Source of the DNA: Psammoneis japonica
Lineage: Eukaryota
Reading direction: 5' to 3'
DNA length: 64,000 nucleotides
NCBI GenBank assembly: GCA_008632985.1
Contig: QPGO01000022.1
Location: forward strand, 1 to 64,000
Part shown: in pieces, positions 23,541 to 64,000 of the stretch
Layout of the letters: each line of letters opens with the position of its first letter
Numbering within the stretch: the first letter of the stretch is position 1
The notes under the pieces: model-generated
Told to the model about the DNA's origin: nothing
The model's input: the letters and a program-made list of their open reading frames with translations, nothing else
Databases searched by the model: none
Made by a program: the position numbers and the translations under genes

Positions 23541-23582
23541 GCTAGCTAGAGAGAGCTAGCTAGAGAGAGCTAGCTAGAGAGA
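23541..23582. repeat. Tandem repeat (GCTAGCTAGAGAGA)x3 at the gene/repeat compartment boundary
   Basis: Three exact 14-bp copies read directly from the sequence. Confidence 0.95.
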
Positions 23583-46200: not shown

Positions 46201-49200
46201 GGAGCCCAGCAACAACTGCATCCATTGTTTGCATGTTGTGCACATTTACAAGGCCGACTTTCAATTGATCACGAGTGTAAAATGGAGGGTGCTAGCACAG
46301 CACATGGAGGCTGGTCAGTTCTTCAACCCCAGCATCTGTGGCACCCGTGCATTTTTGTGTCCTCAGACTCCAGTGTTCCTTGAAGTCTTGGTGCTAGAAA
46401 TCTCCCGCACTTCTCAGAAGATGCTGCCAACCAGAGATGACAATTGCACCTCTTGTTGTGATCAAAACCTTCCAGCCCTTGTGGCGATTCCATCAGTTGG
46501 CCTGGGCATGGACCCACAGGCGGTGGCTGCATGCATTGAGACCATTCACTTGGCAAGATGCTGGTTGCTGACTCTGTTGGGACTGTCCAATGCATCATGC
46601 TCTCACACCCCGGCACATCCCACACATGGCACAGGACAAGGCAGCGGCAACTCCCCATTCCACTGGGACAACTTGTGCAGTCTGCCATTTGACATCTTTG
46701 ATTCCAAGAAGGCTCATGGCGCATTTTTTGAACCCCCCAACGGCACTCATCAGATCAACATTTGTGCCCGTGGTCATGTTGATGACACGTTTAAACAAGC
46801 AAATGAATTTCGTGCTTCCCCCCAACCCTCGGTGGAAGAACTGGCTCTCAATCTACAGCATGACAACCAGCTGTGGTGTGACTTGTCACATGCCAGCGGT
46901 CACGAGCTTGAACTCCCCAAGTGCTCCTTTCATGCCATTGAATGGGAATTTTCAGAATGTGGTGAACCAAGTCTCCGCCCATGCAATCAGGACCTGAGCA
47001 TTGAAATCTTCTCTGCAGATTGCTCCACCTCCCAAGAAAGCACTCAACTGTCTTCATTTGCCACTCATAAAACCTTGGGTCATCATGTTGCCCCAGCCGG
47101 AACATTGCAGAAACAGTTCCATGAGTTGAAAAACACGAGCAACGGCAAAGCTCTCTTCATCAGAGCTGTCCCGCTTGCCCGGTCTGAATCCTGGTGGTGC
47201 TGCTGTGCGTGCTGTCTGCCATCTGTTGTGTTTGTTTTGGCAAACTCTCATTTTACCATGAAAGCTCTTTTGAAGATGCAACAGTGAGCCACAAGAATCA
47301 TTTTTGCCAAGTGTGGTTACAACAGAAACACCAAAAAGATTGCATTGTGCAGCCCTCAGTCCTTGGGTGGTGGAGGATTTTGATCCTCAGACGCAGAGCA
47401 AGGTGCTGCCCAAATCCATCAGTTGCTCAAGCATTCTCGGGGAGCACAACCGCTTCTTGCAGATGATCAGCCCTGCAAGGTTGTTCATGTGGCTTCAGCG
47501 TGGCACCAATTGAGTCCAGGCATGGGCGTGAGCTTTCTGCAGGATGTCAGCACCCCCCATCCACACAGTGAGTCACCATGGTTTGCTTCAGTGCATTCCT
47601 TTTTACACCAGATTGGTGGATGCATCCGAGTGGCAGATGACGGCGCACTCCCGTTACAATGTGATGACGATCAGCATCTCATGGACGTCACTCTGGCATC
47701 AGCGGAATTTTCGTCCCTGGAGATCAAATGATGGATCAACTGTTGTCGCCTCTGTCTCAAGGTTCTCATGGTTTGTTTCTGACATCACGTTGGCAAATGG
47801 TCTCGAATTGGATGAATCCAAAATGTGCGGAGACCCAACACATCTCAGCAGCGTGAGCACCCTCAACAACATCGAGCAAACCAAGCCATGTCCCAAAGCC
47901 TGGCAACCATGGATCCAATTGTGTGGCATGCTTTGTCACCCTGACTCAACTCTTCTTCATCATCCATCAAGGGACTGGCTGGTGCCTCAAATAGAAATGC
48001 GCATGCAAGCAGCTGCTCAATTTTCTCCAAGCAAATCACATCTGTGTGTCCATTCCTCAAATGGCTTTGACATCTTTTTGGTGAGCCAAGCTAAAGCAAC
48101 CTCCCTTTCTGAAATCGAAACTGTTCCGCAAGCATTGGATGACTCGCATCCAGTGGAACTGAGCATGGCCACCGATGGTTGTTGGCAGTTCACCCCTCAC
48201 CGGTCAAAGCTTAAACTGGAACAACCCATCCCCATCCCAGATTTCTTCCGCAATTGCTTGCAATCCCTTCCAAAATGGGAATCTTCCTTGTTCATTCAGA
48301 TGGACTTTCACGTGCCAATCCATGAGCTTGTTGACATTGTGGTTCTTTGTCGGGTCACTTCCGGCAGCAACAGTTCTGTGAAACAGAAACAAGCCACGTT
48401 TGGGTGGACTGTCATGGACGATGGCCGCCCTTTGGTTGATTGCACGGGGCCTGTTTTTGGACGATCACCTTCTTTGTAAAGGGCAGAGGTGCATGGAGTG
48501 CTTTCCCTGCTGAGATTTATTTTTTGACTGTTAGAGTTTTGCAAAGCATGCCAACATCAGGGTGTTGAAAACTGGTGTGACAACAAGGCTTTGGTTTTGG
48601 TGCTCCACAAGTTGTTCGGCTCATGCCCAGCTGTTGATCCTCAGTCTGCACCCTCTGAAACGGATTGCAGCCTGCAGTTCCATGGGGCAAACGTGTTGTC
48701 TTTGGACTGGGATGTTGTCAATGAGATTTTTCAGTCCCACACAGACATTGACAAGTTTCTGGACTTTTTCTCTGTTGCCAGATCACCGTCCACTGAATGG
48801 GTCAAGGGACACCAAGACAGAGAGTTCCCCGCAGCATCTCCACCACTCAATGCCAGAGTCAATGCACAAGCTGACAGGATTGCCGGACAATTTCAGGGAC
48901 AATGTTTTTTTGACACCTCTGCAGTCACAGCATTCCCACATTGCCAAAAGCATCTGGACCTTGCAGATGGCACAGTCACCACAGGATGCAAATCAGCAAT
49001 CAGACATGCCACCACCACCACCCCAGCCTTGTTGGCCTGCATCCAGGAGTGGAGTGACTGGGGTGAGACTGCTGCTGACAAATTGATTGGACAGTCCATG
49101 CTACACTCATTCAACGATTCTCAAAGAAACATGTTTCCACAGTCAAACTCTTGCATGAACTGCTGCCCACAAAAAAAATTGCAAATGGATGCAACCTGGC

Positions 49201-50070
49201 ACGTCCTCATCACTGCCTTGCCTGTGAACTCCCCATGGAGGATCAAGACCACATTCACAGGTGTCCAGACAACAAGCCTTGGAGAAGGAAGTTCGACATT
49301 GTGACAAGACAGACACAATGCCCCCTTTGCGTGAAGTTCAACATTGTGACAAGACAGACACAATGCCCCCTTTGCATGACTTTCTCCTCCAGATGTTAGA
49401 GGCCTGGTTCCAGGGTGCTGTGGCACATGACATGGACACACCTCCACTCCTTCGTACACTGTGGCACAAGCAGACTGACACACAGGATGAACGGGAGATT
49501 CTCTAAGTTGTGGAATGTCCACCAAGAGATGCACCTTTGAGAAACCAGAAAGTTGGAGCAACATCGCTGGGAAAATAGCCCCCCTCTGGTGTGGTCAGTT
49601 CAAATTGGCACTTGCATTTGGAAAGCATGGTGGGAGCTTTGGGAACAGCACAATGCGGCCATGCATGGACATGATGCAGATTCCTGGAAGTCTTCACTGC
49701 AGCGTCAGGCGGAAGCAGAACTTATGGCCATTTACAATGAATGCCAGGAGTGTCTTGCACGTGACCACGATGCACTGTTGGAGTCAGTGGAAGAACACAT
49801 GAGTTGCTCAACATCATGAATCCTAAATTGGGTTGCAATGATTAAACCACGCCTGAAAGACAGCTTGAAAAAGGCAAAGCACTCCCCGCTTTGCGGCACT
49901 TGCTTGATTGCAAGTTATTTTGGTGGGGCGTCACCTTCTGGTGACGCCCATCCCGGCCAGTCACGGACTGCTTCTGCCGCACCTTACGGTGTGCTGGAAG
50001 TGTGGGTCAGCCAGCGCCAGCCTGGCTGGCAAAGGACTGACAGCACTTAAAAATTGTTTTTTTTTTTTCC
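43245..50070 (+). mobile_element. Long Ambal-like non-LTR retrotransposon (ORF1 remnant; APE endonuclease, RT, RNase H), dead and hypermutated
   Basis: APE start 'RLFAFNVNG' and 'SDHQA'; RT 'GLHLGHWKA', 'HGTGQGSGNSP', 'GHVDD'; RNase H 'ATFGW', 'RAEVHG', 'WVKGHQD', 'NAQADRIA'. 5' boundary uncertain; clade call is from memory of diatom LINEs. Confidence 0.88.
49291..49379. repeat. 45-bp tandem duplication inside the LINE
   Basis: GTTC(G/A)ACATTGTGACAAGACAGACACAATGCCCCCTTTGC(G/A)TGA occurs twice; the copies differ at CG versus CA sites. Confidence 0.9.
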
Positions 50071-51072: not shown

Positions 51073-51354
51073 CTTCGTTCAGAGACAGCAGAGCAATGCT
51101 GCCATGTTGCTTGGCATGTTGGCACTCAAGTCAACAAGTGCACATTGAACAAAATGCACCCAGGAGCAACAAGCACAAAATGTGCCAATCAGGTTGGTGA
51201 AAACAAATGAAAATGTTGCACTCCCAACAACAAGTGAATGTCGACTTCAATCTGGAGGGGGGTCAACCAATGTTTGCACACGTGTGCATGCCATGAGATG
51301 GTGGGGTTTGACGACCTGTGACTCACGGCCTTTTCTGTGGGTCTCTGATGTTCT

Positions 51355-52912
51355 TTTTCTTCCACACACACCCACCAAAGATGCACAAGTCACCTTGATT
51401 TGTCACAAAAGAGATGTGCCCAGATTAGGGCAGATTGATTTTTGCACTCCTCTTGGAAAGATCTGTTCACTCGGCCTTGCAGCTTGTTGCCAAACTCTTT
51501 GCTTGTGGCGTGTCATTGCAAATGACAATGACAAAGTGCGCAGCTCAACTGTGACACACAGCGGTTGCTCATTGTCCTGTTTTGTGCTGTTGCTGTTGAC
51601 ATTGCTTGTGTCAGCAGCAGCAACAACAAAACAACAAAAGAGAAAAATTCTCCGCCAAACCTCACTTTTTTTCCAAGTGTGAGAGAAAAAAATTTGCTCA
51701 AAATGGAAAAAAATGTGGCCTGCTGCAGGAAAAAATTGTTTTTCTCCACCGAAACTCATTTTTTTCCAAATGCGAGAAAAAAATGCTCAATGTGGGTTTA
51801 CACACATGTTCAGTCATTGACAGTTGCCAGCGAACTGCATGGAACAAAAAAGATTTTGACCGGACAGAATCGGACAAGAATCGGGAAAAAATCTGCCGAC
51901 ATCTTTTTTCGGAAAAAGGCACACACATTTTCAGTCATTTTAAAGAAATTCACCAATCTCAAGATGCACCTTGTCCTTTTTGTTGCTGCCAGCCCTGAGC
52001 GAATGAGCGGCTTGTTGGACACGATCATGCAAGAGCTGACATTTCTTGTCAGATGCCTTTTCAATGAGTCCCTCATTGGATGCCAAGATGAGGGTTTTTG
52101 TTGTCTCTTCCTCCAAATTGATGATTCATGATGGACACTTGGAGGTCGACGTCAAAAGTCAAAAAGAGGCATGCCACATTTTTGAGAAGGCACTGCCCCT
52201 CAGAAGCAAGATGTTTGATTCCTGCACAAACCACATCGACAACATCATCTGAGGCACTCATTTCTGCCACAATGCAGTTGACATTGCAGCTCCAATCACA
52301 AGACACTGGTGGGCTTGTTTTGTAAAATGGAGCAGGCAGATGCCAACCGTGGGTTGGGAGCATCGCTTTTTTTTGTGGAATCCAACCTTGGTTGCTGCTC
52401 CACTTCCACAAATCACTCTTGATGTGTCCAGTTGTGGCTTTGCCATTTCCTTCTTGCTCTTCCACGCGTCCACCAAAGATGCACAAGTCACCTTGATTGT
52501 TGCACAAGAAACATGTCCGGATCGGGGTGGAGTGGTTGTTGCACTCTTCTTGGAAAGATCCATCAGCTCGGCCTTGCAGATCATTGCCAAACTCTCAACT
52601 TGCAGCGTCGTCACAAAGAACAAGAACGCAAGTGTGCAGCTCAACTGCGACATGCAGCGGCAAGAACTCATCATCCTGTTTTGTGTTGTTGTTGTTGACA
52701 CTGCTTGTGACAGCAGCAACAACAACAACAACAGCACAACAAAAGAAAAAAATTCTCAAAAAAAGAGAAAAATTCTCCGCCGAACCTCACTTTTTTCCAA
52801 ATGTGAGAAAAATTTGCTCAAAATGAAAAAAATCGGCCTGCCGCACGAAAAAATCATTTTTCTTCGCCGAAACTCTTTTTTTTTCCAAATGTGAGAAAAA
52901 ATTTGGGTTTGC
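51355..52912. repeat. Two hypermutated partial copies of the mosaic unit at 54230-56060 (kelch 5' part plus A-tract module; the second also carries an AAA-ATPase fragment)
   Basis: 51355-51955 aligns to about 55345-56060; 51955-52305 aligns to 54230-54614; 52308-52912 aligns to 55194-55695. Confidence 0.9.
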
Positions 52913-52924
52913 ACATTTCTTTCA

Positions 52925-54422
52925 TCACAGCTTTTGAGAAAACCATGTTCCTTCATGGCTTTTCCAGACAACTTCAAAGGAGTTCGAGAGCGACCCATGA
53001 GATTCAAGACAAGCTGGTGATGAGGAAGATTCGCTCCCACAGCAGACAGTCATTTGATTGCGCTCCAGCATCTGGGCACAACGCGACTGAAAATCTTTTT
53101 CAAGCTGCTGAAATTACAACGAGAAAAGAGGACAATGACACAGCAATTGACAAAGAACAGTGTCGGCTGTGCACAAGTTGACAGATGAAAAAGGCCAGGC
53201 TTGCTTCCAGGGGCAGACCGGAGTGCAAACAACAGTTGTGGGTGCAGCCACTGGCACAGAGAATTGCATTCTCCATGTCAACAGTTTCCATCCCAACGAT
53301 GCATCCTTTCAGCAAGGGTTTGTGAGTGTCTTGAAGAGGGTTCTGCCACAGAAATGTGAGTGAATGTGCCATGTGGCAACTCCCGCCTCGCATTCCCGTG
53401 CGCTGCTTTTTCAAAAATGGACAATGCAAGCTTTCCAAACCTTGATGCCTCGCTCAATTTCCCAAGTGAGCACTGCACGACTCCATGCTGAGTGAAGGCA
53501 AATGAAGACAGATTTTGTCTCCCTGTTGTGCAGCGTGTGCTTCATTGAATGAAGCAACAGAACAACAAACAAAGTGCTTTTCTTGACCAGAACGCGCACC
53601 GAGCAATCAAAATGATCGCCTTCATTGCGCCAATCTTGTGATCGTCCGTCATTTGTGACAGAGAGAGAAGGTCATCATCGTCTGACTTGCGCACCATTTT
53701 CTTCACTTTTATGTTGTCATGCAAGACATGTGGCATGGATGGTCTCTCGGGTGTGATTTCTCCCAGCTGGGAGAGCAGCTCAAGACAAATTTTAACAGCT
53801 TCGTCACACTTTCTCTGGTTGGCAGAGAGGGACTCTATGATGGCAAAATGCGCAGGGACCTCATCGTCAAGAGATCGAGCATTTGACAGCACCTTGTCTG
53901 ACATGAGTCTGCTCAGTTCAATGTTCCCATTTCTTAGCTCCATTTCAGCCGAAGCACTGTGTGGCTTCAAGTTCAAGTTGTGCTCTTCGTTCCAACTGTT
54001 CTTCTGGTCTTTCAGCAGTGCAATGCCACATTGGAGGTGTTCTGCGCTGGCACAAAAGCGAATGTGCCCATTGCAATCTTGGCGGCTTCTAGGTTCAGCT
54101 TGGTTAATTATGTTTTGGCGTTGTCAGATGAGATGCACCTCGAACCAAGGTTTAATCGATGCGCAGCAATGACCAGCAACACCTCCTTTGATCCTTTGTA
54201 AGAGGCACTGCTGTGCCATATTGTTTTGTCAATCTCAAGATGTAACTTGTCCTTTTCGTCCCCGCCAGCCCCGAGCGAATAAGCGGCTTGTTGGATACGA
54301 TCATGCGAGAACTGACATCTCTTATTAGACACCTTTTCAATGAGTCCCTCATTACCGGTAGATGCCAAGACGAGGGTTTTTATTATCTCTTCCTCCGAAT
54401 TGTGTCCATCAGATTCCGCCAT
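52925..54422 (-). pseudogene. C-terminal part of an AAA-ATPase/TPR-like protein (related to bacterial kinase-ATPase sensor proteins)
   Basis: 'QFSHDRIQQAAYSL', 'LHLEI', 'AHRLNLG' and a downstream helical region; stops and frameshifts present. Confidence 0.75.
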
Positions 54423-54634
54423 GTCTTAATGATTCATGACGGGCACTTGGAGGTCAACGTCAAAAGTCAAAAAGAGGCATGCCGCATTTTTGAGAAGGCA
54501 CTGCCCCTCAGAAGCAAGACGTTTGATTCTTGCACAAACCACGTCGACGACGTCGTCTGAGGCATTCGTTTCTGCCACAATGCGATCAATATTGCAGCTC
54601 CAATCATAAGATATGAGAGAAAATGATATTAAAT

Positions 54635-55611
54635 CATCGCACTACAGCATTAATGGACAATAACCAAACGTCGCTGCATCCTTCCAATCCACCATTCTTC
54701 TTTGGCACGGCACCACCAAACAGCACGGCACCACCATCTTGTACGGTACATAGACAAGGCGAAGCACGAGGACACGGAGCATCATTGGTCATTTCGACAC
54801 GTGTCTATTCCCATATGGGCGTATCTAACACAAACACCTCGTTGGACATGGTCCCATCTTGTGCGGCTCCGCACGTTACCAGTAACTTGTTTTTCGATAT
54901 CAACGTGGCGCCATGCAAACCACGTGGTGAGGGGGCGTCACCCGTTGTATAGACACGCCACTGCCCTTTTCATTTACAGTAGTCACGACAAGAACGTGAT
55001 TGGTACAGCGATGAGTGTGCAACAAAACGCAGTCGTCATGCAAAGCAACCGCGACATCACGACTCGTAGGTCCGTCGGGTAGTTTGATGTTGCTTTCCAG
55101 CGTATTCCATTGGCTTCCATCCTCTAATTGCACGATATCGTCTAGAATTATTCCATCAGTCCCTGGTGTTTGTGGATCCCAACCACCAAACAGGGTGGGC
55201 TTGTTTCGTAAAATTGAGCAGGCAGACGCCAACCGTGGGTTGGGAGCATCACTGTTTTTTTTTGTGGAATCCAACCTTGATTGCTACTCCACTTCCACAA
55301 ATCATTCTTGACGTATGAGTTATAGCATCGCCGTTTGCTTCTTTTTCTTCCACGTATCCGCCAAAGACGTACAAGTCGCCTTGATTTGTCGTAAAAGAAA
55401 CGTGTCCGGATCGGGATGGAGTGATTTTTGCACTCCTCTTGGAAAGATCTATCCACTCGGCCTTGTAGCTCGTTGCTAAACTCTCAACTTCTAGCATCGT
55501 TATAAAGAACAAGAATACAAGTGTGTAGCTTAACTGTGATATACAGTGGCGACTCATTATCCTGTTTTGTGTTGTTCTTGTTGACATTACTTGTGACAGC
55601 AGCAGCAACAA
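54635..55611 (-). pseudogene. Kelch-repeat protein gene copy, frameshifted, TpA-retaining
   Basis: 'PSRSGHVS...LYVFGGY', 'NDLWKW', 'TLFGGWD', 'PRGLHGA' and 'VLFGGA...DVWLL'. Confidence 0.8.
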
Positions 55612-55815
55612 AACAACGCAACAAAAGAGAAGAATTCTCCGCCGACCTCACTTTTTTTTCAAGTGTGAGAAAAAAATTTGCTCAATGTGGGTTTATACAT
55701 ATGTCCAGTCATTATAGGTCTGAATGAAACATGTGGAAAAAAAAAATTTTTGACCGGGCAGAATCGGGCGAAAATGGGGAAAAAATCTGCCAAAATCTTT
55801 TTTTCGAAAAAAAAG

Positions 55816-55933
55816 ATATATATACATATATACTTATATATATATATATATTCAACTATCTATAGACAGTCTATAGATAGTCTATAGACAGTCTATAGAC
55901 AGTCTATAGACAGTCTATAGACAGTCTATAGAC
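55816..55933. repeat. (TA)n-rich tract followed by about 7 copies of an 11-bp unit with palindromic core GTCTATAGAC
   Basis: Read directly; exact palindromes start at 55880, 55891, 55902, 55913 and 55924. Confidence 0.95.
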
Positions 55934-56549
55934 ATTCATCTATTATTTATTAATGACTAAATATATGTATAACTTTTTTTTCGATTCTCAAAAATCTGTC
56001 GACATCTTTTGTTCGGAAAAGAATTATATACATATTCGGTCATTTTAAAAAATTATCAACTGTTGACCAACTATAGTGTTGATCACAACCATTTTTTTTT
56101 CGTGAAACGAAAAAAAGAAAAGAAAACACCAACAAACCAACAAAAAGACGACGACCAACGAAGCAACGGAGATGTATCCAGATTATTCTACAGTATGTAA
56201 AAAGTCGTCGTCAAGTTGCAACATCCAAGTTTCCAAACGAGGTTGTTGTCTGTCCACACAATCGCTCCTTCCACCCAGTCACAATCATGGACAGGCACTG
56301 GCCAAGAATTGGTTGGACGAAAGGTTGCTTGCGACTTGCGACTTTGGCAAGTCCCTCTCGTTGAATGGAGACGAGGCGATAATTCTTGCGATTGGAGACA
56401 CGACAAATGTGACCGTGCAAACCGTGATGATGGTGTTTTTCTGTTTGAGTGCGACTCCGCTTCGGACCGTTGGGTTCTTCTTGCTGGCGATGTTCCTGGA
56501 TTTTCGTGCGGCTCTCGGACACAGGAGACGTTGTTGCTTTCGGAGCTTA

Positions 56550-57150
56550 ACGACGCTCGAGTGCGAGAATGCCAAGACTGCTACTCCACCGTGGCGGAAG
56601 CCAAGGGCATGGCCTACCGAAACATACATGCTGATTCGGGCCATTTACGGATGCGTAGTGCGACCCCTAATGTTGCCGAGTCGGTTGCTTTTACCCTCGT
56701 GGACTTTGTGGCCACGGATGGGGGCGTGCAGGTTGCTATTTTTGTCAGAGCCATGGTCGAAATAGTACCCCGCACTGCGAGGATCCATCTTGCCCAAGTT
56801 ATTGGGTTTCATCGAGGACATTTCTTCTAGCGTATGCCTCTGGGTATTGTGTGAATACATGGATACGGAGGAAACTTTGAAACTTTTTCGGAACAGCCAG
56901 GTCCGACCCCATTCTTGATCTCCAAAGAAGAGAATCACAAAGAGAATCACGAAGAAGAAGAGGCTCCCAAAATGAATACCAAGAACGTTGTGTTGGCCGA
57001 TGGTACTTCTGCAATCCAGACTGTTTACTCCGAAGCTGCTCGTCCTGACGAGTCGGATAATACTCCTCATCTGCGCAAAATGGTGATTGGTGGTGACGTC
57101 TTCTTGCGAACCATTCTTGCTTCCCGCCTCACCAAGTTGTGTTTGATGGC
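56550..57150 (+). pseudogene. Internal fragment of coatomer beta subunit (beta-COP)
   Basis: 'VAESVAFTLVDF', 'CLWVLCEY', 'VLADGTSAIQT' (compare VLADGTYATQS) and 'LRKMVIGGDVFLRTILASRLTKL'. Confidence 0.8.
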
Positions 57151-59039
57151 TATCTGGTACGGATCTTCCTCAAATACCTTGTTCATTAGTTGAGACTATC
57201 GACTCCTCGTCGCGGCAATTTCGGCACTCCACGAAAAGTTGGATGATCCATTGTTTGTTAAACGGATCATAGTATTAGGTGGTTCTTTAGAGGTACGATT
57301 GTATTGCTCTTAGTATTTTACTGTATTTTTCTTTATGATAGCGGTCGAGGATTGTAGAGTACCGGCATGGCATGTCCTTTGGGAAGAAGAAAGATAATCT
57401 TAATGCGTTACAGCATTGGGTTGAGCGCGTACTCGCACTAACTTACTTTCAAATCGAGCGAGCTCTTTTGAAACTCAACCACACCTCTCCCACCCACAAA
57501 GCAACGCGCAAGACGACGAACGGAACGATCGCCAAGCAAATGATTTACGAAATTACATGATTCGTCTACTGCACGATGACGACTTTAATAAGTTTGTTGA
57601 TGATATGGAGCATAGCATAACCTCGGCGGACGATGGTGGAGCGGAAATATTGAGAGCACTTCGCCGGGCTGAAACGTAGAGCATTCATTGATCCGAAACC
57701 GTACTTTTCTGACAAACCTCGACTCGAGGATAAATCATCGAATCAGTCCTTAGGCTAAAGATCCATATCCATGAGTGTGTGAAAAGTATCCTCTTTCTTG
57801 TCTTGAAGAAGGTGGACAACGTCTTCGAGAAAAATCGTTTCTTGACTTGATGATTGTTTCCCTTTTCTAGTCGCTGACAAGATACGATCCAAGCAACTCT
57901 GTACTTCATGAGATCGAACTGACGATTGAGCAGCCATTGGCAGTGAAATCCAGTCATGAATCGTGACTCCTCTTCGTTCCATGCACGGTCTTTGAGTGAC
58001 ACTTCCTGGTTTGCAAGGGAACTCTATTTCCATTCACTCTGATGGACCGCCAGCACTCACCACAATAATCGGTTTGTATCGAGCCTCTCCAACACTTCTG
58101 AAGGTGCCCCACGTGTTCACCAAACGTGGGGCACTTCTGTTCACAAAGTGAAACCCAGGAGTAACAGACACTCTTGCATGTCCTTGCCCAGATTGGCGTT
58201 GTTGATTTTGAAGTGGCCTTTCAATGAAATTGGGAGACAGGCAAAGCAGCAGGTTCTTGGGGTTGGGATCTTCTGGCTCTCAATCATTGATTGATTCACT
58301 GAGGGCCCAAAGAACAAAGAATGAGCACGACATCCCCGAAAAGCACCTTGTGACGCTTGTGCTTTCATGCCACTTCTCACGTTCATAAGAGCATCTTCGA
58401 AGACTTTTCATGATGAGAGTGACACGGCTTGCAAAAGGCCGCATCAACCATCAGTTTCAACTGCCCAAGCCAAGATGCAGTGAGCAAGCAAAGAGCCATG
58501 GACAAATCATTCACCCCAAAGCAGCACTCATCCCATGCAGCCATTGTCACTGTGTCCCATGCCAAAAGCTTCACGCAGAGGTTTGGCAGCAGCCAACACA
58601 CCATGGGAGGTGACTGCAGAAGGGCAAAGCCACATCCCGTTCACTCCTGTCCCCCTCAAGTTTAATCACATTGAAGGAAAATTTTTGTGGTGAGAAACTT
58701 GCCACCCAGTTCAGTGTCTTGTGCAGAACAAATGTTTTCCAGCAATGCTGCCACTTCTCATGGCCAGATGCATCATTTGGTCGGAGAAAACTCAACGGCA
58801 TTTCATGAACATCTCTGTGTTGTGAAAGCACTGGAACCAAGGTTGCTGCAGCTGGAAACCCAGAGAAGAGCATCGGTGGCTGAAGTTGTCAGATTGTCAC
58901 TCATGACAATGAGAATTGATGGATGCCACATCTCCAGATTGTCCGCAACATGTTGAACTCCGCATTTTTGTGGAAGTCAACAGCAACAATGCTTCAGACC
59001 TTTGCATTGAGACTGAGACTTTTCTCCCAACTTGCTCAT

Positions 59040-59800
59040 TGGAAACCAATTCACCTGACGCTGTTGGCAGTGAGGATCACTTCTTAGAGTCTTTGACAGC
59101 TGTTGGCTGCTGCTTTGATGCACTGACCAGGAAGCAGGTTGCTGTCCACAAACGATGCATTGTGTGGAAGCTTGCACTCTGGAGAAAAGGGGCTCAGCTC
59201 TTTCTTGGCTTGGCAATGATTGACTTGTCATCACATGCTACTCCAGCTCTGTGATCAATGCAAGAAGGAATTGAAGGGTGGAGCACGGTCTGCCTTGAGG
59301 AAGGTGTTGAATGGCGATGTCGCGTTGAACACTCCAATGGTCGTTCTCTGCATCAGTCAAGATTTCTCTGCCAGTCCTTCTCTGGAATCAAAGGCAGAGC
59401 TTGCCAAGGGTTGGTGCTGCACTCCATTCAAGCTCTGTTGGATCTGCGCCTCACTCAGTGGGGTTTGGGATTTGCTGCTGGCACTTGTCTACAATGCGCT
59501 TTCATTGTGCTGTGACCCCAATGACCTGGTTGCCTTCAAGAGAGACCATCTTCACGTCTGTCTCATGCACCTTGGTCTCATGTTTCAACAGAGTGCAGTG
59601 CTTGTTCACTTTGTGCTTGCTCATCAATTTGTGGGTTGTGGATGCCAAGTCAGGAGCCTTCAAGCTGCCAATTCCCACACCTTGTGTAAAGTGCATGCCT
59701 TGTCTCATTCTGGGACCAGCAAGAATGAATCACAAAAGAAACAAAAGCTGGGTTCCTTGCAAGAGGATGTTGCAACTGCTGGTGGAGGCAATTGAAAGCA
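59040..59800 (+). pseudogene. BRCA2: Hypermutated fragment of the BRCA2 helical and OB1 domains
   Basis: 'VHKRCIVWKLA' (compare NHYRWIVWKLA), 'LLQLCDQCKKELKGGARSALRKVLNGD...PMVVLCIS' and 'ELAKGWC' (compare ELTDGWY). Confidence 0.78.
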
Positions 59801-60759
59801 ATTTCCACATTCACAATCATTTGTGGACTGACAAGCAATGCTTGTCTCTCGAATGTTTCTTGCCTGCTTCTTAACTTGCACCATGCCACGAAAACAAATC
59901 AAAGAAAGTTCCGCTGCGAAATTTTTGACTGGCAGACTTTTACAATTGGCAAAATCACAGCTGTGCATCTGATGGTCATAAGAAAATTTTTTGTGCCAGC
60001 CATGTGTCTCTGTTGGGAGCGCCTCTGTTGTCATCCAATTTGTGCTTCACAAAAAACAACTCCAATTTTGGCACTGCTTTGACAGTGGTTTTGGAGAACT
60101 CTTTTGCGCTTCCCAGTCTTGAATGTTCAGCTGAGCAGTCCCAGGAAGGAGTGTCCTGGACTCAGCAATTTCCACTGCGGACACATTCAGCCATCATTTC
60201 TCATGATCTGGGGTGGTGCATTGCTTTGTCCCATGAGAGCATGTTGGGATCCTTGTTCTTGCAAGTGGCAGCCTTGCAGACCTGGGGAGCAGTCACAGAA
60301 ATGGAGCACCCGTGATTGAGCCTGTGCTGTGCATGGAGGCAGCTGTCAAAGTGTGCCAAGCAGCCACATCCCTTGGATCCATCATGCCTGTGCCACTGCA
60401 GAGGAGCATGAGATCAAGTCGAACACATGGGAGGAGGAGTGGCAGGCATTTCCTTGCTCCCTCTCTTGGCTGGGTTCATGAGAGAGAGGCTCTGGGGAGT
60501 GGAGGGCTCCAACAGAGGGCTGGTCTTCACACTGGGTGGTGTCTGTGGGGCTGTCCCCCTCTGAGGCAAGTCTGGCATGAGAGGACCTGGAGAAGGCTCC
60601 ACCTGTGGCAGAGATGAAACTGAAGGGGCTGGCAACACCACAGAACTGTGTGTTGGCGTGCTGCAGGTGGGGTGGGAGGCACTTGGGCCACCAGAGAAAC
60701 TGCACTGGTGGAAGAAGGCGTGGTGAGCAGCCATGACTCTGTGGTGGCACAAACCTTGC

Positions 60760-63700
60760 ACATTTGCCAAGACAACACTCATCATGTTCTTGGGAAGGAT
60801 CAGCTTCAGCACCAAGAATCTCAAGAGCCTCTGCCTTCATGCAGAGCAAGCAGCAGGGAGCGCTGATGTGCTTTGCACGTGGAGACAGTTTTGCCATTTT
60901 TGCAAAGTTGAGGCATGCTTGAGGTCAGACTGTCCTTGCACACAATCAAAGTTGGGATCTTGCCTTCTTTTGCATCTGAAAATGCTCTAGATTTGGCAGC
61001 AGCATCAGGTGTCTTGCAGTTCTTGCACCCAAATGTGTGAGTCTGAAATCCTTTCAAAATTTCATGAACTGGAGTTAAGTTGATGTGCATCGCAGCCAAT
61101 GGAGCCAGCCTCTGCACAGCAGAAAGCATGACCTGCATCTGCAGCATGAAGACCCACAGAACAGGACACTCATGACCCAAGATGACATGCACCCAGTGCA
61201 AGACTAGATGCCAACCAGGTCCACAGGGTCATTGTGTGTGAAAAATCATGGGGCCAGCAGATCAATTGTTTGATTCAGAGGATTGATCCCTGCTGCCTGC
61301 TGATTTTTTGTTTTTGCATTCAAGCAGTCTCTTGTTGTCACCACCGTGCAACAATGATTTCTCTGACTGTGTTTCCAAGGGGCCAACAGGAAAAAATTGG
61401 TGCTGCAATTTTTTGCACAGGTGCATTGCTGAGGCCAAGCAAGGGTGGTTCACATGTGAGCTGCTTTGCATGTTGGAGAGACTGGCAGAGGTGATTTTCA
61501 ATGCATTTTGTGGTGTGTGTGTTGCCGTGTGCTTTGTTGCAGCCAAGGGAGTGCCCCACTTAAAAGCATTTTTGTGGTCATCACTCGAAGCAAGTAATTT
61601 CACAGCAAAAAAGTCAATCTTCTGGCACACACAGACAATCTGCTGACAAGCCCAAGTTTCCCATGGCCATGCAGACTGGCAAAATCAGCACCAACAAAGC
61701 AGCCAGTCCATTTGTTGTCACCAGGGCATGAACAGAGTCCCTTGTCCCCAGCACCTTGCAAATGCCATGAAACATGATTTTTTTTTTACCTCAACCATGT
61801 GGGAGTGCTTGGGAGTGTCAGAGAAATGGGCTGCTTGATGAGATGCATCAACACACCAACAAAGGAATGGTGATCCCAGCTCTTGTTGAATTTGGCTCCT
61901 TTTCATCTTTGTGACATGAAGCAGTGGCACATGGAGTGGAGGCTGACCTGCAATTTTCTGCAACAGCTGTCTTGAGAACCTTCTTGTCAAGCCAGACTGG
62001 GTGAGCAGGACTCCTTGGGGGCATTGCAGTCTTGCAAATCTTGATGCCAAGAAAATCAACAAGTTCTTGCTTGTTTTGCAACTCAAACACATGATGTTGT
62101 TTCTCATCTTGCAGCCACCCCCAGGGCTTTGATCCTTTGTTCTTTCCAGCATGAACAGCATTGTCAACACAGACCACTCGAATCATCTCATCCTTGAAGA
62201 ACAGGCATGGTTGACTTGTGACTGAGTCCACAACATTCGAGATTTGTTTTGACGACACTCTGAAGCTTGTCCTCAAGCACCAGAGATGTCCAGACTGGAG
62301 AGCAGCCAGCGTTCTTGTGGAACATCTCATCATCAAAAAAGCACTCCTGATCAGTGGGTGGCTGTGTGCACACCTCAACAAAATCATTGTCATCACTCAG
62401 TTCCATCAAATTGGCAAGTTCAAAAGGCAGAGTGGGTGCATCATTCTTGTCTCTGTCTGAGTGCACCACCAACTCACATTTGAGCTGTGTCATGCCTTGG
62501 GAGAGCAGCACTGGATGAGCACACTGTGGGCAACAGGTCAACTCAGTCATCAAGAGCAGAGACAACATTTTGAGTCTGCCAAGAGCATGGGGAGTTAAAG
62601 GGCTGAAAAGGGTGGGGAAGAGTGTGGCCAGCCACCATGCAATGGAGCAATTTTGCACACAATGACATCCCCATGGCAGGGATGGCAACACAGGGTGGGC
62701 ACACGTTTGAACAGGCAGACATGGTGGGGTGAGAATCCTCAGCAGAGATGCCACAGGCAAAGATGGTGTGAGCTTGGGGCCCCACCAGGTGGCGGTCTGG
62801 TGCCAGATTTGGCTTGGACATGGCATCAATGCAGTGCTGCTCAGTGGCAGGGAGAGCAGAATTGTCAAAGGGGGCACCAACTGGCTTGTGCTGTGGGGGG
62901 TCTTTGTTGGGGAACATGACACCAGCATTGTCCCAAGAGAAGTTGCCACAGCTGCCAAAGCAATGCTGCAGTCACCAGCATCTTCAAGCTCAACAGTCTT
63001 GACTGCAATCTTGGTGAGCTCCCTCTGAGATGCAGGAGCTGGCTTGCAGAAGCCTTTTGCAGTTGGTGCAGCCAGCAGAGGATGGATCCTTGACTTGCAG
63101 GACAATGAAGCCCAGTTCACACTGGTTCCTTGCCGCCAACAGGAGCATCCCTGGGCAAGTCAGTTGGATCGGAGGCAGTCTGGGTGGCCAGCCCAAGTGG
63201 GTGCCTGAGCACAGGTCATTGATGGTTGATGGAGGTGAGGTCACCCACAAGCTGCTCTTGCTTGGACAGCTTGTGAGCATGGTCCAGTTTCCTGTGATTT
63301 GTGCATGTCATGTCCCTGTGACACCAGTGTGTTTGAAAGAGTGCACTTTTCACAGAAACAGGTCAAACCAGACTTGCTCACAATGGGCTTAGAGGGATCC
63401 ACCAGATGGGCACAACAACGGGGCTTCTTGGTGTGAGCAACTCCTTGGGTTTGGCTCTTGTTTCTCAGCAGGGGAAGTTTCAATGGCAGCAGCACATGTC
63501 ATTGATGCTGGCACTTTTTTTCTTTTGCTGTTGTTGTTCACATGCTTGGAACACTTGCATGGGGCTGTGCCAGCCCACCCAGTGGCATGTTGTGGCTCCA
63601 CAGGAGTGGTGGGCACTGCTGCAATCAGATTTGGAGGCATTGTGGCTCTGAGGGGGCTCAGTCAAGAAGCTGAGCCAATCCTCATCAGCATTCAGAAGAT

Positions 63701-64000
63701 GCTGGTGACTGTTTGAGAGGCAATGTCACTGCAGGCGGTGGGTGTGCTTCACAAAACATGCGGTTGAATGAAGAAGGAGTGACAGAACCTCAAGTCACTG
63801 AGGGGCTCAGGAAAGAGCACGTAGAAACAATGTGTTGCATGTCTGACACACTTTGTGATTGGGCAAAAGCTGCTCCCGGATGGGACGAAGTGCCGTTTGC
63901 TGCAGACAAAAGGCGCAACAATTACTTTGCTTCCAAACTTTGCGACAAATTTGGTCTCAACCGTGTCAACAAGAACGGCAAGCAGGCACAACTGTTTGAG
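60760..64000 (-). mobile_element. Heavily degenerate Ty1/Copia relic (RNase H, RT and less certain upstream regions)
   Basis: 'KLSPRAKHISAP', 'CPVLWVFMLQMQVMLS', 'PCLFFKDEMIRVVCVDN' (YVDD position) and 'DFLGIKI'. Extent beyond about 62.3 kb is tentative. Confidence 0.7.

What the first reader, a model, noticed from the sequence alone, without database searches (positions are those of the whole stretch)
54100..58100. A ~4 kb TpA-retaining island whose left edge cuts through a single pseudogene
TA and CG are abundant again between about 54.1 and 58.1 kb even though the sequence is duplicated and pseudogenised. The AAA-ATPase relic (52925-54422) straddles the edge: Tyr is kept on the island side (QQAAYSL), while TA is nearly absent from 52.93-54.08 kb. 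The mutation therefore appears to follow chromosomal position or chromatin state rather than element identity or duplication alone (inference).
Basis: partly seen in the sequence, partly recalled or inferred. Interest (0 to 1): 0.72.

Follow-up and report, generated by a model that had tools for sequence, protein, structure and literature searches.

The report
Spared island inside TA-erased diatom DNA
In a diatom-like alga, a 4-kb patch of dead, duplicated gene pieces has kept its TA and CG letter pairs while the DNA on both sides, and copies of the same patch elsewhere, have had them mutated away, which suggests that this rare mutation process picks its targets by where DNA sits (probably silent versus active chromatin) rather than by what the sequence is.

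Summary
Confirmed. Window 54,090-58,078 holds 49 TA/kb against 3-4 in both flanks; CG recovers too. The island is a chain of broken host-gene fragments around an AT-rich core, with no intact gene found. A sister copy on contig C10, equally old (17 vs 19 private background changes), lost 50 of 58 TA sites that the island kept. So duplication and element identity do not decide erasure. The left edge lies inside a colinear AAA-ATPase relic and is graded (TA kept 2/30, 4/19, 8/14, then 46/50). Two caveats: its sharpest step coincides with the end of a 349-bp conversion tract shared with an erased paralogue, and the right edge lies at rearrangement junctions. Short-read contigs support the assembly. 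A run that I infer to be RNA holds island-specific contigs over 56,204-57,233. Best reading: a small active patch that escapes a silent-chromatin TA>CA/TG mutator (0.55). Boldest rival: a centromere core, since this is the lowest-GC spot in 674 kb of the contig (0.12). The mutator itself is reported in Bigelowiella natans, and this scan noted it many times before on other DNA of this genome; the spared island is what this finding adds.

The parts
54090..58078 (.). TA- and CG-retaining island inside an erased domain (23,576-79,928)
   Evidence: HMM segmentation and counts
52914..54650 (-). Frameshifted relic of an AAA_16 ATPase gene (C-terminal part only, source intron 53,108-53,204 retained); straddles the left edge, colinear with the open-frame copy on C235
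   Evidence: 90% identity over 1,741 bp, tblastn to residues 317-809, Pfam AAA_16 E 4e-30 on the source
53756..54104 (.). Gene-conversion tract shared with the erased paralogue at C22:137.8-138.8 kb; erased sequence; its right end is the sharpest step of the left edge
   Evidence: 15 of 15 erased TA sites resolved alike, 0 background differences in 349 sites, against 7 of 14 and 2 of 4 alike on either side
54105..54350 (.). Partly erased fringe of the island
   Evidence: 8 source TA kept, 6 changed to CA/TG, against 46 and 4 further in (P 0.005); two sites resolved opposite to the paralogue
54645..55580 (-). Kelch-repeat pseudogene (three frameshifts); open-frame copy at C225:22,172-23,377
   Evidence: 93% DNA identity, 40 of 46 source TA and 50 of 53 source CG kept; Pfam Kelch on the source; tblastn in four pieces
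55590..56170 (.). AT-rich core (31% GC; lowest 500-bp window 28.2%), lying head to head between the Kelch 5' end and the rightward fragments; candidate bidirectional promoter or centromere core
   Evidence: relatives only at C152, C10 and 51.6-52.9 kb, all erased
55816..55934 (.). (TA)n microsatellite followed by 6.9 copies of an 11-bp unit with a palindromic core
   Evidence: TRF; array found only here in G000; one of 8 (TA)8 loci in G000; reads as CA/TG repeats in the C152 copy
56172..56765 (+). 197-aa chimeric ORF over the FG-GAP-like and beta-COP fragments; probably not a conserved protein
   Evidence: no Pfam hit; no homologue at E 0.001 among proteins of 108-345 aa
56221..56548 (+). FG-GAP-like gene fragment
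   Evidence: 65-70% match inside an FG-GAP_2 ORF on C2; erased copies on C10 (two) and C152
56548..57175 (+). Beta-COP (coatomer beta) pseudogene fragment with small deletions
   Evidence: 82% to the 845-aa open frame on C88; Pfam and PDB identify the source
56204..57233 (.). Stretch covered by two island-specific contigs of run X2, which I infer to be an RNA run; strand unknown
   Evidence: records 12 and 13, 0 and 2 differences, depth 6.4 and 8.2; X2 record 9 skips a GT-AG intron
57462..57983 (.). 3' ends of a REC114-like gene (+) and a DEAH helicase gene (-), convergent as in their source on C305
   Evidence: 92% identity, 15 of 20 source TA kept, 1 changed to CA/TG; Pfam REC114-like E 0.032 (weak), HA2/Helicase_C on the source
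57983..58126 (-). LMF1 gene fragment between two junctions at the right edge; partly erased
   Evidence: 85% to the LMF1 ORF on C153; 3 TA kept, 3-4 changed
58129..63743 (.). Erased right flank shared with C225; includes BRCA2 pseudogene pieces at 58,492-60,135
   Evidence: 84% to C225; 3 of 57 BRCA2 source TA kept
51351..52821 (-). Erased tandem duplicates of the Kelch, AAA and AT-rich pieces in the left flank
   Evidence: 1 of 48 source TA kept

Best explanation
The genome carries a regional mutator that turns TpA into CpA or TpG on both strands, together with slower CpG decay, in silenced blocks (shown from paralogue pairs; the link to silencing is inferred). The island is a mosaic of dead host-gene pieces that has stayed outside that state while DNA in cis on both sides, and sister copies elsewhere, fell inside it (shown). 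The likeliest cause is that its AT-rich core works as a promoter, keeping a few kilobases transcribed and unmethylated, as happens around live genes (transcription of 56.2-57.2 kb inferred from one run; promoter role and cause inferred). The mutator's reach fades over a few hundred bases at the left edge (shown), where a short conversion with an erased paralogue has sharpened or coincides with the step (tract shown, direction open). The right edge follows rearrangement junctions.
For: Spectrum: of 289 TA sites in retaining copies 245 read CA or TG in the erased copy, 24 kept; of 378 CG sites 185 read TG/CA, 171 kept. Equal age, opposite fate: with live genes as outgroup the island and C10 lineages have 17 and 19 private background changes in 1,227 sites, yet C10 changed 50 of the 58 TA sites kept in the island. 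No unerased copy of the composite turned up in G000. Left edge colinear, background divergence from C235 3.2% left and 4.8% right, and changes shared with the C22:138-kb paralogue on both sides of the edge. Graded retention 2/30, 4/19, 8/14, 46/50. CG retention rises with it: 12/45, 19/38, 7/10, then 73/75. Left part erased independently of the paralogue (7 of 14 alike), so after their split. X1 contigs match the island and bridge the right edge with 0 differences at depth 60-69, like the flanks. X2 skips a canonical intron of the AAA source and holds two contigs matching only the island. Fragments next to the core point away from it (Kelch and AAA leftward; FG-GAP-like, beta-COP and REC114-like rightward). 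13 of 17 enclosed TA-rich blocks under 10 kb in C22 1-594 kb hold an ORF of 250 aa or more. Mettrop et al. describe the main hypermutated region of B. natans as transcriptionally silent.
Against: The RNA evidence is one run that the tool labels 'DNA?', contigs only, no strand, no level. The contigs begin 2.1 kb from the left edge, whereas erased edges lie a median 605 bp from the nearest long ORF and 1.95 kb or more in only 8 of 48 cases, so a second, leftward transcript or another cause is needed for the left half. The same AT-rich element did not protect its copies at C152, C10 or 51.6-52.9 kb. The conversion tract ends at the left step and the right edge sits at junctions; 14 of 16 TA sites at 58.5-59.45 kb are resolved alike in the window and C225, so that flank may have been erased before it joined the island. 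Transcription could be a result of being spared rather than its cause. No methylation or chromatin data.
Confidence: 0.55

Rival explanations
1. Closing remnant: nothing protects the island. Silencing and erasure spread inward from both flanks and have not yet met; the RNA is incidental. Position still decides, but by distance from the nucleation sites.
For: CG retention rises toward the island over 2.5 kb on the left (12/45, 19/38, 7/10). Partly erased fringes at both edges. The left part of the AAA relic was erased only after its split from the C22:138-kb copy.
Against: The core shows no leakage (4 of 50 TA changed at 54,351-55,600) over a time in which C10 changed 50 of 58. The right edge steps from island level to 2 TA in 360 bp. 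The older duplicates on the left are also more diverged (8-12% background), which can explain the CG gradient by age.
Confidence: 0.17
2. Centromere core: the island is a CENP-A domain of a few kilobases with an AT-rich centre, kept free of methylation and of the TA mutator inside a pericentric repeat block.
For: Top 3-kb score for 100-bp windows at 32% GC or less among 671 windows of C22 1-674 kb (8; next locus 5), and lowest 500-bp window (28.2%; next 32.6%). Size 4.0 kb lies in the 2.4-5.6 kb range of P. tricornutum CENP-A peaks, which are mostly intergenic low-GC spots (Diner et al.). No intact gene found. 52 kb of erased DNA around it.
Against: 8 windows is under the ten or more that mark most P. 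tricornutum peaks, and they form one 500-bp block. Erasure itself raises GC, which favours any spared AT-rich element (erased sisters 34-38% GC). Every contig has some minimum, and 105 kb of C22 was not read. Other enclosed islands lack long ORFs too (79.9-81.5 kb, 508.6-509.3 kb). The 11-bp array is not a genome-wide family; three other (TA)8 loci examined score 0-3. Island-specific RNA contigs fit a promoter as well.
Confidence: 0.12
3. Structural origin: an unerased segment was brought in recently by recombination, conversion from a homologue, or insertion, and has not been erased yet.
For: The right edge lies at junctions 57,983 and 58,126/9; the nearby right flank shares its erasure with C225. 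The left step coincides with the end of a conversion tract. Young insertions do make TA-rich islands here: a 936-aa RT/RNase H/integrase frame sits unerased in an erased block at C10:424-427 kb.
Against: No donor with the AAA-Kelch junction or an unerased core was found in G000 (these searches score only the best candidates). No lineage switch at the left edge. The tract is erased sequence on the flank side, not the island. In-place partial erasure continues 250 bp beyond it. Depth equals the flanks, so the island is not on one homologue only (inference from contig depth).
Confidence: 0.13
4. Assembly join between erased and unerased copies.
For: No listed short-read contig bridges the left edge (558 pieces were not shown), and a near-identical 349-bp tract lies there.
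Against: An X1 contig spans 57,940-59,290 with 0 differences. A path swap at the tract would still join erased sequence to the island, as both possible left partners are erased. Depth at 53,714 splits 57.6 of 176.1, as for three real copies.
Confidence: 0.03

Closest known systems
TpA hypermutation of integrated viral DNA in Bigelowiella natans (Mettrop et al., bioRxiv 10.64898/2026.01.13.699255; parts 1-3 of 5 read)
   Same: TpA to TpG or CpA on both strands, confined to regions; long-term clusters of TpA-poor, CpA/TpG-rich DNA; main target described as transcriptionally silent.
   Different: Here the erased DNA includes host-gene pseudogene mosaics, erasure is near complete (about 92% of TA) and comes with CpG decay. 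In the parts read the paper has no spared island, no paralogue pairs with opposite fate and no edge profile.
Repeat-induced point mutation (RIP) of ascomycetes (features recalled; abstract openings seen)
   Same: Dinucleotide-specific transitions that wreck repeats; reach into neighbouring DNA (recalled).
   Different: Opposite direction (RIP makes TpA from CpA). RIP is triggered by duplication and hits both copies; here an 88-93% identical duplicate of more than 1 kb and its live sources are untouched.
DNMT5 CpG methylation of transposon-rich regions in Phaeodactylum tricornutum (PMC9998398; passages read)
   Same: CpG decay in the erased blocks and CpG retention in the island fit methylated versus unmethylated domains.
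   Different: 5mC deamination does not explain TA loss; the TA mutator is faster (C10 changed 50 of 58 TA but 16 of 78 CG).
Diatom regional centromeres (Diner et al., bioRxiv 10.1101/096016; abstract and passages read)
   Same: A few kilobases, intergenic, the local low-GC peak.
   Different: 8 low-GC windows rather than ten or more; built of duplicated gene pieces; CENP-A untested.

Membership tests
B. natans-type TpA hypermutation (flanks and sister copies) | TpA to TpG/CpA transitions on both strands | tested here: met
   127 CA and 118 TG of 289 TA sites
B. natans-type TpA hypermutation (flanks and sister copies) | Confined to regions, with the rest of the genome normal | tested here: met
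   264,540 of 594,000 bases of C22 in TA-poor blocks at 1.6-10.5 TA/kb against 31-74 in the others
B. natans-type TpA hypermutation (flanks and sister copies) | Targets of viral or other foreign origin | tested here: not met
   Erased DNA next to the island is host-gene derived (AAA, Kelch, BRCA2); retrotransposon remains lie further left (RVT_2 at 35-36 kb)
B. natans-type TpA hypermutation (flanks and sister copies) | Silent targets, active DNA spared | tested here: inconclusive
   Island-specific contigs in a run inferred to be RNA; silence of the flanks not shown
B. natans-type TpA hypermutation (flanks and sister copies) | De novo rate in mutation-accumulation lines; ADAT2-like deaminase proposed | not testable with these tools
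   No lines; enzyme not searched
Fungal RIP | C to T at CpA, raising TpA | tested here: not met
   TpA is lost; CA and TG steps are kept at 92% and 91%
Fungal RIP | Duplication is sufficient and both copies are hit | tested here: not met
   Island 88% identical to C10 over 1.0 and 1.2 kb and 93% to C225 over 0.95 kb, yet unerased
Diatom centromere (P. tricornutum type) | Scaffold-wide peak of 100-bp windows at 32% GC or less in 3 kb | tested here: met
   Top of 671 windows over 674 of the contig's 779 kb; the contig is not a whole chromosome
Diatom centromere (P. tricornutum type) | At least ten such windows (most peaks) | tested here: not met
   8 (criterion)
Diatom centromere (P. tricornutum type) | Mostly intergenic, 2.4-5.6 kb | tested here: inconclusive
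   4.0 kb without an intact gene, but the size here is a mutation shadow, not a ChIP peak
Diatom centromere (P. tricornutum type) | CENP-A occupancy; episome maintenance | not testable with these tools
   No ChIP or conjugation data
Recent transposon insertion | Element ends at both compositional edges, intact mobile-element genes | tested here: not met
   Left edge inside a colinear host-gene relic; no mobile-element Pfam hit among island ORFs

The most novel reading that the evidence does not exclude
The island is a centromere core: CENP-A chromatin shields about 4 kb of otherwise dead, duplicated DNA from both CpG methylation and the TpA mutator, so that gene-free, AT-cored islands spared inside erased blocks would map this diatom's centromeres from sequence alone and show that the mutator reads a chromatin mark that centromeres exclude.
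Probability: 0.12. Interest if true: 0.82.

Novelty: new variant of a known kind. Interest (0 to 1): 0.55.

Why it matters
How the TpA mutator chooses its targets is open: the one report, in B. natans, suggests defence against foreign DNA and leaves the guide unknown. This locus is a natural control. The same dead sequence, of the same age, is erased at two places and spared at a third, and one gene relic passes from erased to spared within a few hundred bases. That argues against a RIP-like homology trigger and against recognition of foreign sequence, and for a chromatin-guided process. It names a 4-kb target where methylation, RNA and CENP-A data would separate the explanations. If the core is a centromere, spared islands become a way to find centromeres in repeat-rich diatom genomes.

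Tried and rejected
No RNA holder was listed on record for 53-59 kb. Run X2 had no contig on 46.0-50.8 kb or 58.6-64.0 kb, and no island-specific contig on 54.1-56.2 kb; missing cover is not used as evidence. X3 laid nothing. A live protein-coding gene in the island: ORFs gave no Pfam hit except a weak Kelch piece, the 197-aa chimeric ORF had no homologue, and an intron I had guessed at 56.19-56.28 kb is not removed in the X2 contig. Structured RNA: no Rfam match at 52-60 kb. A genome-wide centromere satellite: the 11-bp array occurs only here; of 8 (TA)8 loci I could examine 3 besides this one, 3 kb each, and none has a comparable AT-rich core; the other 4 were not seen. The last 105 kb of contig C22 were not read. 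Flanks as transposons and island as non-transposon: rejected, both flanks are host-gene relics. Island as conversion from the C235 gene: rejected, it is 4.8% diverged from C235 and shares changes with the erased paralogue. Direction of the conversion tract: unresolved; 4 of 20 TA kept inside against 0 of 27 outside in the paralogue favours window to paralogue (P 0.027), while the coincidence with the step favours the reverse. Literature searches listed no paper on TpA hypermutation in diatoms or on spared islands; the library lacks most subscription journals. Earlier-finding look-ups by words and by sequence returned nothing.


Full report
Setting. The window is G000:C22:1-64,000 of a 91-Mb, 597-contig genome. 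I call it diatom-like: the nearest Atlas clusters for the AAA relic are mostly Bacillariophyta (a lead only) and earlier notes say the same. Bases 1-23,576 are gene-rich with normal TA and CG; from 23,576 to 79,928 TA is nearly gone except in the island. Over C22 1-594 kb, 264,540 bases lie in such TA-poor blocks, so the genome is a mosaic and TA-rich islands are common: 17 enclosed blocks under 10 kb, 13 of them with an ORF of 250 aa or more (one of the other four, 88.8-91.6 kb, is split off only by a stretch of N).

The island runs 54,090-58,078, with 196 TA in 3,989 bp against 14 in 4,090 and 16 in 3,922 bp of flank; CG rho is 1.07 against 0.46 and 0.19. Removing the AT-rich core leaves 143 TA where 13.4 are expected. 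The AAA relic spans 52,914-54,650 and is the C-terminal part of an 809-aa AAA_16 frame on C235. Three of 6 source Tyr codons survive on the island side and 0 of 11 on the left.

The mutation. Nine pairs of retaining and erased copies give 289 TA sites: 127 CA, 118 TG, 24 kept; of 378 CG sites 185 became TG or CA. Background differences are 1-10%. This is the signature that Mettrop et al. measured in B. natans (bioRxiv 10.64898/2026.01.13.699255; abstract, results, discussion and conclusion read; methods and supplements not seen). Earlier notes of this scan gave me that paper and report the same process on many other pieces of this genome. It is not new to the scan.

What the island is. A chain of broken host-gene pieces: the AAA relic, a Kelch pseudogene with three frameshifts (open copy on C225), an AT-rich core with a (TA)n run and an 11-bp array, an FG-GAP-like piece, a beta-COP piece (open copy on C88), the 3' ends of a REC114-like gene (weak Pfam hit, E 0.032) and a DEAH helicase gene (C305), and an LMF1 piece (C153). 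No intact gene, Rfam RNA or mobile-element gene was found. The flanks are the same kind of material, erased: tandem Kelch and AAA duplicates on the left (1 of 48 source TA kept) and BRCA2 pieces on the right (3 of 57).

Same sequence, opposite fate. The composite recurs on C10 and C152, both erased. With the live genes as outgroup, island and C10 have 17 and 19 private background changes in 1,227 sites, so neither is the younger copy, yet C10 changed 50 of 58 TA and 16 of 78 CG sites that the island kept. No unerased donor of the composite or of the core was found (these searches score only the best candidates). Duplication and element identity therefore do not decide erasure.

Left edge. The relic aligns to C235 across the edge without a break; background divergence is 29 of 915 left and 21 of 438 right, and changes shared with a third, erased copy at C22:138 kb occur on both sides. 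Retention of source TA (kept of kept plus CA/TG) is 2/30 at 52.9-53.76 kb, 4/19 to 54.10, 8/14 to 54.35 and 46/50 to 55.6 kb; the 8/14 zone differs from both the 2/30 zone (P 0.0006) and the core (P 0.005), but not clearly from the 4/19 zone (P 0.07). At 54,206 and 54,214 window and paralogue took opposite routes, so these were erased in place. Against the simple picture: 53,756-54,104 is nearly identical in window and paralogue (15 of 15 erased TA alike, 0 background differences in 349 sites, 3 differences in all), whereas the flanking parts agree at 7 of 14 and 2 of 4 and overlapping pairs of erased Kelch copies at 45-69%. This is a conversion tract and it ends at the step. If it came from the paralogue it sharpened the edge; the direction is open.

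Right edge. It lies near junctions at 57,983 (helicase to LMF1) and 58,126/9 (LMF1 to the segment shared with C225). At 58.5-59.45 kb window and C225 resolved 14 of 16 TA alike, at 59.46-60.1 kb 10 of 20; 58,129-58,490 has 6 opposite CA/TG pairs. So part of this flank was erased before the copies split. This edge says little about position.

Assembly and expression. In run X1 a contig covers 57,940-59,290 with 0 differences at depth 68.8, another 56,308-56,800 at 59.7, like the flank contigs at 52-64; no listed piece bridges the left edge, but the table was cut. A path swap at the tract would still join erased DNA to the island. Run X2 is labelled 'DNA?', but its record 9 skips 53,105-53,205, which is a GT-AG intron in the C235 gene, its depth differs by gene (21-202) and it totals 29.9 Mb; I infer RNA. 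Of 12 X2 records laid, two match the window at 99% or more, covering 56,204-57,233 with 0 and 2 differences at depth 6.4 and 8.2; known paralogues differ there by about 18% or more. One sample, no strand, no level.

How it most likely works. Shown: a regional TA mutator plus CpG decay; a spared, equally old copy; a graded edge in cis. Inferred: erased blocks are methylated, silent chromatin, as transposon-rich regions are in P. tricornutum (PMC9998398, passages); the island stays active because its AT-rich core fires transcripts, with the neighbouring fragments pointing away from it. I give this 0.55. Its weak points are that the RNA contigs start 2.1 kb from the left edge while edges usually lie within about 0.6 kb of a long ORF (8 of 48 at 1.95 kb or more), that the same core did not save its sister copies, and that transcription may follow rather than cause protection.

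Rivals. A closing remnant with no barrier (0.17) fits the CG gradient but not the clean core. A centromere core (0.12): the island has the top low-GC score of 671 3-kb windows in 674 kb of C22 (8, next locus 5) and the lowest 500-bp window (28.2%), and its size fits P. tricornutum CENP-A peaks; but most of those have ten or more windows (Diner et al., bioRxiv 10.1101/096016, abstract and passages; its supplementary table on methylation at centromeres was not seen and bears on this), erasure raises GC elsewhere, and the array is no genome-wide family. Recent structural import (0.13) explains the right edge and the step but has no donor and no lineage switch. Misassembly 0.03.

Comparison and verdict. 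The flanks work like the B. natans TpA hypermutation and meet its spectrum and regional features, but not its viral target. They fail the RIP tests (direction; duplication sufficient). Six literature searches listed no diatom report and no account of spared islands. I rate it a new variant of a known kind. The value of this finding is the control it offers on targeting, not the mutator itself. Interest 0.55.

Noticed in passing
window 53,756-54,104 and G000:C22 about 138.3-138.6 kb: Since the conversion, the paralogue has lost 3 CG but none of 4 remaining TA. Either TA erasure comes in bursts or some contexts (pyrimidine-TA-purine) resist it.
   Followed up: partly
window 46,438-49,964: Eight listed differences between X1 contigs and the window in the erased flank: five are CpG transitions, one is TG versus TA (46,814), two are other. 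If these are alleles, both processes are recent.
   Followed up: partly
window 56,548-57,175; L009-L019: Beta-COP has many decayed copies in this genome (over 15 further places); most of the eight loci examined keep their TA, another sign that duplication alone does not trigger erasure.
   Followed up: partly
window 51.3-60.1 kb; C10 434-440 kb; C152 12-14 kb; C225 16-23 kb: Long chains of intron-keeping host-gene fragments (AAA, Kelch, FG-GAP-like, beta-COP, REC114-like, DEAH helicase, LMF1, BRCA2) duplicated as units. Resembles gene-fragment capture by Helitrons (recalled); a weak Pif1 2B hit lies at C22 98-99 kb. Element ends not identified.
   Followed up: no
G000:C152 about 13.5-13.6 kb (L004): The island's (TA)n microsatellite reads as CA and TG repeats in the erased copy, a direct picture of the mutation.
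   Followed up: yes
G000:C10 424,391-427,198 (L064): 936-aa open RT/RNase H/integrase frame keeps its TA inside an erased block: a young insertion not yet erased.
   Followed up: partly
G000:C22 79,928-81,464 and 508,588-509,320; C10 430,349-432,720: Other enclosed TA-rich islands without a long ORF or Pfam hit.
   Followed up: partly
window 23,541-23,582: The left end of the erased domain (23,576) falls on a three-copy 14-bp GCTAG/GA-rich repeat just upstream of an RBFA gene.
   Followed up: no
window 57,200-57,460: A further + strand gene fragment with what looks like a short GT-AG intron; source not found, no Pfam hit.
   Followed up: partly
runs X1-X3: X2 is listed as 'DNA?' but skips a canonical intron and varies in depth by gene, so it appears to be an RNA run.
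   Followed up: yes
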